This document shows positions 1 to 53,790 of a DNA stretch of 64,000 bases, in pieces. The DNA comes from Octopus vulgaris. Taxonomy: Eukaryota. Position numbers and translations under genes: made by a program. Below the pieces are notes generated by a model. The model was not told the origin of the DNA, did no database searches, and saw nothing but the letters and a program-made list of their open reading frames with translations. The stretch is taken from positions 91,512,001-91,576,000 of the forward strand of contig OX597815.1 of the NCBI GenBank assembly GCA_951406725.2, given 5' to 3'. The stretch's first letter is position 1, and each line of letters starts with the position of its first letter.

Positions 1-2002
1 AACAAATACATTTGAAAGCAGAGGATACCTTAGTATGTATTTTACGTTCAAATCAGCACATAGGTATCATATAAGAAACAAGTGAACTTGAATATCCAGG
101 CTGACTTACTCTTGTCACAGTGCATGATGACAATAATCATGGGAGCAGGGAGGCTCAACAACTAAATAGTAATGAACATAGCTGTCATTCTATTTTGTAT
201 TTGGGTTGTGTATTTAATTTTTTTACATTCTTTAGTTTCAATTTATGTACACCAGATTACCTGGGAAATTTATGTAATGTAAAAATTGTATCCAGCAGGA
301 GACTGATCTCTCATTGGTTTAGTCATTGTAAAACTAAAGCTAACTACTTTCATGTTGAAAGTCTCTCAGGTCTTTGGTGCATTTTTTTACATTATAATGA
401 ATTTTCAGTTCACTTTAGAAAATAATTATTAAACAGTAAAGCCAGATAGACATGAACAATTTCTGAAAACATTTATTTCTTGGGAAAACTATATTTCAAG
501 GAAGCATTTTAACTTCTAATACAATTCCTATCCAATCTTACCCACAGCATTTTTAACTATTATTGGATTCCACTCTTAAACTACATTAGTGCATCTGTTG
601 GTTTTTGGAGCCAATTAGAGTTGATCTTTTATGGGAACTATCTTTCTACTTCATCTTTGATTCCTTGAAGAAAGGAAACTGATATCTTAATGATCTTTTC
701 AGAAATGCCATGAAGGAAAAGTTTGTTAAAATTGTTTTCTTTTTTTATTTCCTCATAATTTCCTCATTGAAATAATGACTATCATAGAGTGCATCAATTT
801 AGGGTGCAGTTATTTCAATTGGTGCATTGAGACAAAATGGCAATGTTTCCGTAAGAAGAATAAATGGTAATGGATACTATGCCATGTGAGTGCAGAAAGG
901 GAGCTTAGTTTATTTGTATATGTATGACTAAAAATGGCAATGAGTAAAAGTAAAACTTTGTATATATTTGTAATAAACTTCAATATTTATCTGATTGTCA
1001 AATTGGTATATTTGTCAAAAAAAAAAGAAAATTGTGGAAAGTTACTGATTAAGAGCTAATCCATAGTTTGTTAGTGATCGGAACTAAAATAAACCGGCTG
1101 TGTATGAGTCATTAGATCAGATGACAACTAGTAGTTGTGTATACAGATATGAAAAGAAAGCAGATTTGCTTTAATAGCGGTTGCTATTCAATGTATGATT
1201 GTTATGAATTAGATAAATACTTTAACACTATTATTAGCAACAAGTTAATATCATAGTGTGATATGTAAACTGGAAATGCTTCTGTGGTGTGGATGTTGGT
1301 CATAAGGTCTATTGTTTATTTTGGACAGCTTTAATTTGATGTTTAACAAAAAAAGGATAAAACTACTCCTGGACAGAATGCTAGTTTATTGCAGCATCTT
1401 TTTCCAATGTTAAGTGCATTGTTCAAATATGCAATGCAGCACTTAAAATAGATTTAAATTCAAAACCTGTATGCTGGTAGTCCAATAACATATTCGATCA
1501 GCAATTTTGCTCATATAATTAATGTGGTATAATTGCAGGCAAATTATTATCTTAACTATCCATTCCTACCAACCTATTTAAAATGTTTCCAAAATTATTT
1601 TATTGAATGTATACACCCCTAGCCTTAGTTTATGCTTGTGGAATTGTTGATTTCTGCTGACAATATTCTTGTCTCACATAGAATTACTTCCACTGAGTTT
1701 TATTGAAATTTATAAAAGTGTTTCTGCTTCATTGATGCATGTGTGCATATGTGTTGTAATGGTGATTGGTATTGGAAGATTATTCACCATATTCTTGTGG
1801 GTTACTGATGTATTGTAAGCATTAAGAAGTTGAAAATATTTGTTGAAGTTTGTAGTGGTAAGACATTTTGTGAGACTGGTAGTAGAATGTATACATAAAT
1901 ATGTGAATGGGTCTTATGTTATTGATTTTTATCATGAATACTTGCACTTTTAATATGTTGTACTCTATGCTTGTGGTATCTACATACTAGTTACATAACT
2001 AC

Positions 2003-8474: not shown

Positions 8475-8627
8475 ATACATACATATATAAATATATATAT
8501 ATATATATACGCTTATACATGTGATTGCATATGCATATGTATATATATATGTATACATACATACATATATATATGCTTATACATGTGATTGCATATGCAT
8601 ATGTATATATGTGTATATATATATACA
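8418..8627. repeat. Microsatellite with a duplicated gcttatacatgtgattgcatatgcatatg unit
   Basis: Directly visible; the unit occurs twice about 65 bp apart. Confidence 0.9.
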
Positions 8628-9267
8628 CAGTTCATCTTTGGTGTTACAAGGAGTTCTGTTGGTCTCTCGCTCAACTGTACCCCACAGATAATAATCAAGC
8701 AAGTTGCAGTCTGAAGTATTAGGTGGCAAAATGTTAGGAGTGATGTAGTCGCAGAAATTGTCTGACCCCCTGACTGGGTTCTCCTGCTTGTGGTTGCATG
8801 GTGCAGAGTCCTGTTGCCAGACACAGGGGCTTCCAGCAGCCACCCTCTTGACCCAGGGCAGCACTACCTCCTCCAGGCACTTGATGTAGGCCTCTGTGTT
8901 GAGTTTGAGGCTGTGTTGGAAGAGGAATGGAGGCATAATGTCGCCATAACTTGTGATCACTCCAAACACCATGATGTTGATTGGATATTTGAATTTTATC
9001 ACTCCCGGTAAATGTCCTCAGATTGACACCCAAGCACTCTGAAATGTTCGTATTGGAGCTTCTGGCATGAATGCCGAGCAGTACAGCATGTCGTTTCCAA
9101 ATTTCTGACTGAGTGAATTGGATCATGATGCTATTTTTCTCGCAGGTGGTGCCCAACTGACTATACTATATTGTGTCATTGACAAAATCAAAAACAAACA
9201 ATGTACATGCACGAAATTAAAAATATTAAAAAAAATAAAATGACGACAATTTACCCATCACACCCTG
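8628..9267 (-). mobile_element. Tc1/mariner DD37D (maT-type) transposon, internally deleted and 3'-truncated
   Basis: Translation IMVFGVITSYGDIMPP...VWQQDSAP-...-SDCNLLDYYLWG with 37 residues between the last two catalytic Asp; terminus cagggtgtgatgggtaaattgtcgtcat at 9267 abutting TA. Confidence 0.9.
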
Positions 9268-13357: not shown

Positions 13358-13649
13358 TCTTTAGAGATTGAAGTTGTGTGTGTGAAACTCTGTCTCCTCC
13401 GATTTAGATTCTTAACTACTCCCACATTTTGCGGTGCAGTTTAAACAAAAGTGGGTATCTTATAGTCGTCATTCATATCGAGCCGTTCTGGGTATTAGCG
13501 CGCGTCTACAATGAGTCTATGATTTAAAAAAAAATTTACCATCATTTTTAATGATTTTTGCTCGGGTTATATAAGGGAAGTAACTCTCTAAAAATGCTTA
13601 TATAGTTATTTCCCTTACAAACCCGAGCAACGCCGGGCAATACTGCTAG
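13358..13649 (+). mobile_element. Non-autonomous Helitron
   Basis: Starts TC, ends with hairpin cccg-agcaacgc-cggg then CTAG, lies between A and T with no TSD; second copy at 14381. Confidence 0.85.
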
Positions 13650-13775
13650 TATATATGTGTGTGTGTATATATATATATATAGATATAGATAGATTAATAT
13701 ATATATACACCATAGTAAGCACATAAATGTGAAACAAGGTGGAAAAAAGAGTACTCAATACCAGAGGGAGAGTAA

Positions 13776-13940
13776 TATGCTTTATTTAAAAGCAGCAGAA
13801 ATATAACAAAAGCTGTTACTCAGAGTATCACGTTCCTGTTCGTCGGACAGTTTTGTTAAAAAAAAACGTCCAACGAACGGGAGCATGAATCTCTGAGTAA
13901 CAGCTTTTGTTATATTTCTGCTGCTTTTAAATAAAGTATA
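13776..13940. repeat. Fold-back inverted repeat (~73-bp arms), each arm carrying a degenerate minimal hammerhead; Penelope pLTR-like
   Basis: Arms 13776-13848 and 13868-13940 with a 46-bp perfect stretch; consensus ctgt CCGACGA acg-ggaa-cgt GAAA ctc-t-gag TA acag. Confidence 0.85.
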
Positions 13941-14192
13941 TATATATATATAAAGAGTATGAGGGCTTTAGTTCACTGATGATCTAAATGAATAGGTACG
14001 ATGAGTAAGTGCTATAAATGGTGATCTGTTAGATTCCAAATTCACAGCTGAGGCTGGAGCTAGGAATCCACATTATGCTTCTGAGTTAGCAGGTATATAT
14101 ATTATATTAGAGGAAAAAGGATAACAAAAACCAAGGCAGGACAGGTATCTTAAGTCATTTACTATATTTAATTAGGGTAAGGTGAATTTAAA

Positions 14193-14388: not shown

Positions 14389-14726
14389 AAAAGTAAGGTT
14401 GTGTGTCTGTCTCCTACGATTTAGATTCCTAACTACATATCGAGCCCTTCTGGGTATTAGCGCGCGTCTACGATGAGTCTACGATTTAAAAAGAAATTTA
14501 CCATCATTTTTTTCCATTTTAATGCATTTTTTCGCTATTATATAAGTATAAGGGAAGTAACTCTCTAAAAATGTCTACGATGAGTCAACGATTTAAAAAA
14601 AAAATTTACCATCATTTTTTTCCATTTTTAATGCATTTTTTTGCTATTTTTTGGCTATAACTCTCTAAAAATGCTTATATAGTTATTTCCCTTACAAACC
14701 CGAGCAACGCCGGGCGATACTGCTAG
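14381..14726 (+). mobile_element. Non-autonomous Helitron with internal ~105-bp tandem duplication
   Basis: Same body as 13358-13649; ends acccgagcaacgccgggcgatactgCTAG|T; gtctacgatgagtc...taactctctaaaaat occurs twice. Confidence 0.88.
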
Positions 14727-14954
14727 TATATATATAAATAAATGAAGGCTTTGACCTAAGTAAAATCTTTTGTTACGTGTTTTAGCAGGGAAATATTCAG
14801 TTAAAGTGAAAGCATTGTGTTATACTGGGTAAAAAAGGAAACTAATATTCAGGTCTGTTCCTATTATTGAATTATATTTTTACTAGGTAAAAAGAAAAAT
14901 TGATATTCAATTCTTTTTTAGTAAGTCATCATTATATGCATATGTTTGTGAAGA

Positions 14955-53679: not shown

Positions 53680-53790
53680 TTACACCATTATAGTGCAAAT
53701 AATAACTACTCAAAGGGCATTTAGTGGTTACTCTACAGTTACATTTCTTCTTCTCATGAGTTAGGGGCAGTGATGGAATTCTATTATTAT
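53680..53790 (-). pseudogene. Penelope-like zinc-finger linker relic
   Basis: KKKCNCRVTTKCPLSSYYL resembles the CNCR-x4-CPL-x-G-x-CL motif that precedes the GIY-YIG domain. Confidence 0.55.

What the first reader, a model, noticed from the sequence alone, without database searches (positions are those of the whole stretch)
13776..13940. Mirror pair of minimal hammerhead ribozymes inside a 165-bp fold-back
Seen: two ~73-bp inverted arms. Minus-strand copy: ctgt CCGACGA aca-ggaa-cgt GATA ctctgag TA acag. Plus-strand copy: c-gt CCAACGA acg-ggag-cat GAAT ctctgag TA acag. Their consensus is a complete type I hammerhead: stem I ctgt/acag, CCGANGA variant of CUGANGA, 3-bp stem II, GAAA, palindromic stem III actc-t-gagt, GUA cleavage triplet. 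Known: Penelope-like elements carry minimal type I hammerheads with palindromic stem III that work as dimers, and often have inverted pLTRs. Inference: this is a tiny ribozyme-bearing palindromic element, so either transcript holds one ribozyme plus its antisense. All arm mismatches but one fall in the ribozyme half, while the outer 46 bp are perfect.
Basis: partly seen in the sequence, partly recalled or inferred. Interest (0 to 1): 0.72.

Follow-up and report, generated by a model that had tools for sequence, protein, structure and literature searches.

The report
Mirror-image stub of Penelope jumping gene
This hairpin is two short, head-to-head leftover ends of a common Penelope-type jumping gene, likely left by an aborted insertion, each with a mutated and likely dead copy of that element's hammerhead RNA motif; the family has over ten thousand such motifs in this genome, about half with an unusual core letter whose effect on cutting is untested.

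Summary
The fold-back and both hammerhead-like motifs are real. They are not a self-contained tiny element. The insertion spans 13710-13936 in (TA)n. It is the 3' end (pLTR) of a Hydra-clade Penelope-like retrotransposon twice over, head to head, with a 70-nt tail on one arm only: the published PLE architecture. Walking upstream gave the RT-endonuclease parent (L090) and a young sister subfamily with open 727-codon frames. The genome holds 10,679 intact-core motifs, 5,687 with C at position 4. Clade relatives show strong stem covariation but U4 in 50 of 51. Both copies here have core mutations and would sit in a -113 kcal/mol hairpin, so they are predicted inactive. Not found in the papers I could search: a long-lived C4-core lineage, and 5' truncations piling up just upstream of the ribozyme (90 of 126 within 30 nt). 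Copies show no excess of ends at the predicted cut site. The scan noted similar Penelope palindromes in other families of this genome; a sequence look-up found none of this family.

The parts
13710..13936 (.). Whole insertion: two head-to-head, 5'-truncated 3' ends (pLTR pieces) of a Hydra-clade Penelope-like element
   Evidence: Family alignments end at these two points; 92% to parent L090 and 87% to young sister L124
13710..13779 (-). 70-nt 'tail', on this arm only; in full elements it is the sequence between the pLTR and the ORF start
   Evidence: exactly one arm tailed in 68 of 72 short copies with an inverted partner (a pair counts twice if both arms matched)
13780..13861 (-). Tailed arm, truncated about 15 nt upstream of the ribozyme core
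   Evidence: alignment: 2 differences from the subfamily majority in 81 nt
13804..13858 (-). Hammerhead copy 1 with extended stem I: core C3-A9 at 13846-13840 (C4 variant), stem II 13839-13830, mutated GAAA 13829-13826 (A14U), palindromic stem III, predicted cut between 13817 and 13816; one CpG transition in stem II
13858..13866 (.). Inversion junction (A-run) joining the two truncated 5' ends
   Evidence: junction varies between copies
13867..13912 (+). Hammerhead copy 2: 1-nt loss in stem I, G5A, loop change, CpG transition in stem II, A15.1U; predicted cut between 13899 and 13900
13862..13936 (+). Tailless arm ending at the family's second fixed 3' end, 37 nt past the predicted cut site
13651..13709 (.). 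(TA)n-rich target microsatellite, left flank
   Evidence: TA-rich flanks in nearly all of 29 copies shown
13937..13951 (.). (TA)n target, right flank; no target-site duplication can be read

Best explanation
This is a head-to-head pair of 5'-truncated 3' ends of a Hydra-clade Penelope-like retrotransposon, each holding a mutated copy of the element's minimal hammerhead motif, likely made in one aborted insertion into a (TA)n tract and predicted to be inactive. Shown: parent element, family size, two fixed 3' ends 70 nt apart, tail on one arm only, variable junction, truncation hotspot just upstream of the ribozyme, core mutations in both copies. Inferred: the element's endonuclease nicks both strands; its reverse transcriptase primes twice on element RNA (once at the tail end, once 70 nt earlier); both runs stop soon after copying through the ribozyme's extended stem I; the ends join by A/T microhomology. 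In the parent RNA the motif would cut slowly as a dimer through its palindromic stem III. The copied template spanned the cut site intact (uncut or re-ligated).
For: 1,254 first-look candidates for the fold-back; 10,679 intact-core motifs, control 0. Upstream walk: homology runs continuously into an RT + C-terminal endonuclease frame with the motif on both sides (L090). Young sister subfamily with open 727-codon frames, tandem and inverted copies, unit 3,356 nt, 74% identical to the L090 C-terminal frame. Hydra diagnostics RWK, DKT, CxCX5C, CxxC, CxH present (against PMC8557442 section 11). Inverted 5'-truncated copy, one-sided tail and (TA)n targets are published PLE traits (PMC8557442 passages); opposite-strand hammerhead pairs 100-700 bp apart are reported in PMC4209133. 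Clade covariation with stem I not required: 61 sense vs 3 antisense distinct core hits in 79 loci, 51 of 61 with 4/4 stem I pairs in 4-5 pair types. Two-copy folding of an intact copy pairs stem III between molecules (-7.9 kcal/mol duplex). Truncation: 90 of 126 copies end within 30 nt upstream of the core, 26 at 31-200, 10 beyond; partner arms not selected for the motif: 19 of 27 start at -35..0, 8 inside or downstream, none further up, tailed and tailless alike.
Against: No cleavage was tested. Pfam gave no family for the proteins and PDB none, so RT/GIY-YIG identity rests on motifs, Atlas look-alikes and homolog annotations. No tree against published Hydra proteins was built. Some junctions recur (spacing 54 in 4 of 14 pairs), which a small transposing unit would also give. 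Zero changes in the outer 92 nt is lower than the 4.8% rate predicts (about 1%, post hoc). The truncation sample was chosen by intact cores and 5 of its copies served as references. Double priming is inferred from DNA ends only.
Confidence: 0.86

Rival explanations
1. The fold-back is itself a non-autonomous unit (retrozyme- or MITE-like) that is transcribed and copied whole by the PLE machinery.
For: Constant outer ends in 29 copies chosen for likeness to the query; recurring junctions in young subfamilies; PLE-derived non-autonomous retrozymes are described (10.64898/2026.07.22.740005, part 1 and passages).
Against: The constant ends are shared with long and solo copies. Junctions differ among copies sampled by motif. 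Each successive subfamily has fold-backs with its own motif variant, usually on both arms. No tandem arrays. An 83-bp hairpin masks the ribozyme.
Confidence: 0.08
2. Short fold-backs are collapsed remains of long inverted insertions, shortened later by central deletions during DNA repair.
For: Long head-to-head pairs 1-4 kb apart exist; palindrome instability is general knowledge (recalled).
Against: Solo copies with no inverted partner stop in the same zone (about 20 of 26 short solo copies within 23 nt). Short fold-backs are already common in subfamilies only about 1% diverged.
Confidence: 0.05
3. This locus was kept by the host as a functional double-stranded RNA (small-RNA source or editing substrate).
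For: Perfect outer 46 bp; strong hairpin.
Against: Divergence is that of its subfamily; copies decay with CpG bias and no significant core protection (non-CpG core 5/204 vs flank 45/794, p=0.07). No gene was evident in the window among 18 frames of 130 aa or more (read by eye).
Confidence: 0.03

Closest known systems
Hydra-clade Penelope-like elements (Craig et al. 2021, PMC8557442; passages, section 11, supplement part 2 and search hits seen)
   Same: RWK, DKT, CxCX5C, CxxC and CxH motifs, one ORF, (TA)n targets, hammerhead near the 3' end, inverted truncated copy. Hydra-2_aMil has the same 4-bp stem I and stem III as this family.
   Different: Unit is 3.36 kb (paper: generally <3 kb); tail 70 nt (paper: 30-40 bp, stated for Naiads). 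All 26 Hydra rows of File S2 have U4; this lineage mostly has C4. The one cephalopod member listed, Hydra-1_Obim, has another ribozyme and a different N-terminal protein sequence, so this is another family.
Minimal PLE hammerheads (Cervera and De la Pena 2014, PMC4209133; parts 1-2 of 4 read, one of two supplement files searched)
   Same: Type I, tiny palindromic stem III, dimer model, thousands of truncated copies, opposite-strand pairs.
   Different: Stem II is very short (2 bp plus variable closing pair, GNAA loop) instead of 6-8 bp with G10.1-C11.1; C4 is not among the core variants in the parts read.
U4C hammerhead of a viroid (passage in Perreault et al. 2011, PMC3088659)
   Same: Same core change; said there to lower in vitro activity yet allow infectivity.
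   Different: There a rare viroid variant; here the state of several retrotransposon subfamilies with 5,687 matches.
Non-LTR retrozymes (10.64898/2026.07.22.740005, part 1 and passages)
   Same: Short non-coding type I hammerhead repeats derived from PLE pLTRs.
   Different: Retrozymes are head-to-tail tandem units; this is a head-to-head pair with variable junction.

Membership tests
Hydra-clade PLE | RWK motif and DKT motif in the N-terminal RT region | tested here: met
   P0002; the L090 parent copy is broken in this part
Hydra-clade PLE | CxCX5C linker; CxxC before conserved E and CxH after conserved N | tested here: met
   P0002 and 20 homologs; L090 keeps CxxC and CxH, its first linker C is mutated
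Hydra-clade PLE | Single ORF, RT followed by C-terminal GIY-YIG endonuclease | tested here: met
   727-codon frame with RT motifs; Atlas look-alikes with HTH_animal and GIY-YIG on 17-69% of members; Pfam scans blank
Hydra-clade PLE | CCHH motif absent from the endonuclease | tested here: inconclusive
   None seen, but no alignment to CCHH-bearing clades was made
Hydra-clade PLE | (TA)n insertion preference | tested here: met
Hydra-clade PLE | Generally under 3 kb (a tendency in the paper) | tested here: not met
   Unit 3,356 nt in tandem L132, owing to a 3' UTR of about 1 kb
Hydra-clade PLE | Placement in the clade by RT phylogeny | not tested
   Published proteins were seen only cut in the supplement
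PLE insertion architecture | pLTR or partial tandem, inverted 5'-truncated copy, tail at one end only | tested here: met
Minimal type I hammerhead (family motif) | Conserved C3, G5, A6, G8, A9, G12-A14, A15.1-U16.1 and NUH triplet | tested here: met
   Unchanged between the window subfamily and the young subfamily found by protein search; 10,679 matches
Minimal type I hammerhead (family motif) | U4 in the core | tested here: not met
   C4 in the window subfamily, 5,687 of 10,679 matches; U4 in the young subfamily and 50 of 51 clade relatives
Minimal type I hammerhead (family motif) | Covarying stems I-III, palindromic stem III | tested here: met
   Across the clade. Within this genome stems I and III are invariant, so they give no covariation
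Minimal type I hammerhead (family motif) | G10.1-C11.1 closing pair | tested here: not met
   A with U, G, C or A; U.U in 25 of 51 relatives
Minimal type I hammerhead (family motif) | Self-cleavage as a dimer | not testable with these tools
   Folding only; no genomic footprint of cutting
Minimal type I hammerhead (the two window copies) | Intact catalytic core | tested here: not met
   A14U in the minus copy; G5A, A15.1U and a stem I deletion in the plus copy
Non-LTR retrozyme / non-autonomous unit | Head-to-tail tandem units or one fixed internal structure | tested here: not met
Non-LTR retrozyme / non-autonomous unit | Abundant circular RNA | not testable with these tools
   Only assembled contigs of uncertain type were served

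The most novel reading that the evidence does not exclude
In this lineage the hammerhead works mainly as a folding and pairing scaffold for integration rather than a fast cutter: a detuned C4 core leaves the RNA intact, the palindromic stem III holds two templates together for double priming, and the extended stem I stops reverse transcriptase at the ribozyme's 5' edge, so the genome fills with mirror pairs of ribozymes.
Probability: 0.15. Interest if true: 0.65.

Novelty: new member of a known kind. Interest (0 to 1): 0.3.

Why it matters
The locus is a dead stub, but its family bears on an open question: what PLE hammerheads do (called unclear in PMC8557442). It offers a young subfamily with many open-frame copies, natural C4 and U4 versions of nearly the same ribozyme for a direct rate comparison, and thousands of insertion ends showing that the copied RNA spans the cut site and that copying tends to stop at the ribozyme's 5' edge. 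CUGANGA descriptors would miss about half of these motifs.

Tried and rejected
Rfam: no hammerhead. Pfam and PDB blank for the element proteins. My first guess of the Neptune clade was dropped after reading the Hydra definition. One search was faulty (one reference held an inverted arm) and was redone. Fixed RNA 5' end or start site at -15: rejected, 0 of 35 full-frame copies end at -20..-1 and 17 run more than 400 nt upstream (37 loci given, 35 scored). Footprint of cutting: not found. Young-subfamily 5' ends at the cut site 22 vs 8 and 18 at control positions, about half of the 22 being small internal deletions; 3' ends at the cut site 21 vs 15 at a control with the same local letters. Editing or selection behind the mismatch asymmetry: not general. 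'One-unit' copies ending at +61..65 (4 of 35): 3' ends mixed, 2 tailed and 2 tailless, inconclusive. RNA: no RNA holder listed on record; contigs only, no ends or strand; the unique right flank had no cover in three guessed-RNA runs, which proves nothing. Lunse et al. 2016 (PMC5785218) is not held and may list C4 variants. File 1 of the PMC4209133 supplement was not searched; the PMC8557442 supplement is cut. Searches for prior reports found no paper on C4 PLE hammerheads, this family or the truncation hotspot; PMC13282606 (passages) has no 'hammerhead', 'ribozyme' or 'Hydra'. PMC13481778 uses a CYGANGA descriptor (listing only, not read).

Full report
Observation. The window holds an inverted repeat with arms 13775-13857 and 13859-13941 (88%) that folds at -113.5 kcal/mol, z -22.4. 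Rfam does not detect them. The window lies on contig C2 of a 2.8-Gb animal genome, likely an octopus (my inference from size and repeat style; no call names it).

It is a repeat family. The 165 bp gave 1,254 first-look candidates, 40 scored, 80 matches at 84-100%. Aligned copies share two fixed outer ends in TA-rich flanks; one arm runs 70 nt further than the other. The element here is 13710-13936. The first 30 of these, not chosen for the fold-back, include solo stubs, fold-backs with different junctions, and longer copies with upstream sequence.

The parent. Searching with that upstream sequence gave copies whose homology continues for over 1.5 kb into an endonuclease frame. L090 holds motif, tail, a broken RT-endonuclease frame, a 3' UTR and the motif again. 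Its RT piece found 7,646 candidates, 150 scored, many with an open 727-codon frame, in tandem and inverted arrays with a 3,356-nt unit. The protein has the motifs that define the Hydra clade in PMC8557442 section 11. Pfam and PDB scans were blank; Atlas and homolog annotations point to HTH_animal and GIY-YIG. The one cephalopod Hydra family in that paper's supplement has a different ribozyme. Inverted truncated copies, a one-sided tail and (TA)n targets are described there, and opposite-strand pairs of minimal hammerheads are described in PMC4209133. In my sample exactly one arm has the tail in 68 of 72 short copies with an inverted partner.

Is the motif a hammerhead? At clade level, yes. In 79 metagenome loci encoding relatives, a full descriptor hit 58 loci on the sense strand, with 0 antisense hits and 1 hit in shuffles. 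A core search that did not require stem I gave 61 distinct sense hits against 3 antisense; 51 of 61 had 4 of 4 stem I pairs in four to five pair types, and the first free stem III pair and the second stem II pair formed in 51 of 51. In this genome 10,679 matches keep the core and palindromic stem III, reversed control 0. Between the window subfamily and the young one, found by protein alone, the motif differs at five places: positions 4, 7, a loop-2 base, 11.1 and the centre of stem III. Stem I extends about 8 bp past a bulge, and two copies of an intact motif are predicted to pair through stem III. Cleavage itself is untested; PMC4209133 reports low, dimer-dependent activity for such motifs.

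The C4 core. 5,687 of the 10,679 matches have C at position 4. C4 is found in subfamilies from about 8% down to 0.9% divergence, U4 in one at 1.3% (tailed copies, n = 4-13 per group), so C4 masters amplified repeatedly. It is rare elsewhere: 1 of 51 relatives, 0 of 26 Hydra rows in the published table. U4C is known from a viroid, with lower in vitro activity but enough in vivo (PMC3088659 passage). Lunse et al. 2016, which I could not read, may already list it.

This locus is predicted dead. The minus copy has A14U and a CpG transition in stem II; the plus copy has a stem I deletion, G5A, A15.1U and two more changes. A transcript of either strand is predicted to form the long hairpin. In 30 loci picked by upstream sequence (those with enough alignable sequence scored), non-CpG divergence is 4.8% in both halves and 14% at CpG; unselected partner arms give 5.2% vs 6.7%. 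The zero in 92 outer sites is a roughly 1% event noticed after the fact.

Mechanism. All common 3' ends lie 37 or 107 nt past the predicted cut, not at it. Ends at the cut site are no more common than at control sites, so the copied RNA spanned the site, either uncut or re-ligated. 5' ends pile up just upstream of the core: 90 of 126 within 30 nt, 26 at 31-200, 10 beyond (selected for intact cores). Partner arms, not so selected, start at -35..0 in 19 of 27, whether primed at the tail or 70 nt earlier, and solo copies stop there too. This favours a position-specific stop at the 5' edge of the extended stem I over a length limit. It is not a fixed RNA start: 0 of 35 full-frame copies end at -20..-1. 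I infer two primings at opposite nicks, early stops and joining by A/T microhomology (0.86). A self-copying palindromic unit (0.08), later collapse of long inversions (0.05) and host function (0.03) are the rivals. Ribozyme dimers need not cause the inversion, since Naiads make the same structures without canonical hammerheads.

Verdict. A real but ordinary product of a known class of element; a family of that class not in the tables I saw. Interest rests on the C4 lineage and the truncation hotspot, neither found in my ten paper searches. Earlier scan notes report Penelope palindromes and ribozymes in other families of this genome; none matched this sequence. Interest 0.3.

Noticed in passing
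G000, e.g. L124:2200-6040, L125-L128, L132, L303-L334: Young Hydra-clade subfamily with many near-identical copies of an open 727-codon frame and a canonical U4 hammerhead; likely recently active. Words of it are held by runs of five coded organisms.
   Followed up: partly
L307, L317, L319, L127: 4 of 35 full-frame copies have their 5' end at +61..65, next to the tailless 3' end position (+67), i.e. close to one exact unit; could hint at a circular template, but 3' ends are mixed and some are inversion junctions.
   Followed up: partly
family 5' flank, about -14..-10 from the core (window 13856-13859): A 4-nt palindrome sits at the same place in old (TTAA) and young (CTAG) subfamilies and recurs at fold-back junctions; in young ones the flank also resembles a splice acceptor.
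   Followed up: no
L229:2168-2205: A hammerhead with C4 core and 6-bp stem I upstream of a Hydra-like ORF in a metagenome contig, the only C4 case among 51.
   Followed up: no
L251:1938: Hydra-like element with the U3-A8 core covariation.
   Followed up: no
window 13389-13656 and 14406-14733: Two copies of another repeat that ends in a short hairpin and CTAG and sits in TA tracts (Helitron-like by recall); the same repeat abuts the 3' end of L124.
   Followed up: no
window 53708-53749 (-): Weak match (E 0.47) to the Hydra linker CxCX5C region; possibly an old fragment of a related element.
   Followed up: no
window 8577-9165 (-): Frames that look like a decayed Tc1/mariner-type transposase (label recalled).
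   Followed up: no
L131:7054: A second, unrelated canonical-core minimal hammerhead with longer stem II near a Hydra copy, so other PLE families are present.
   Followed up: no
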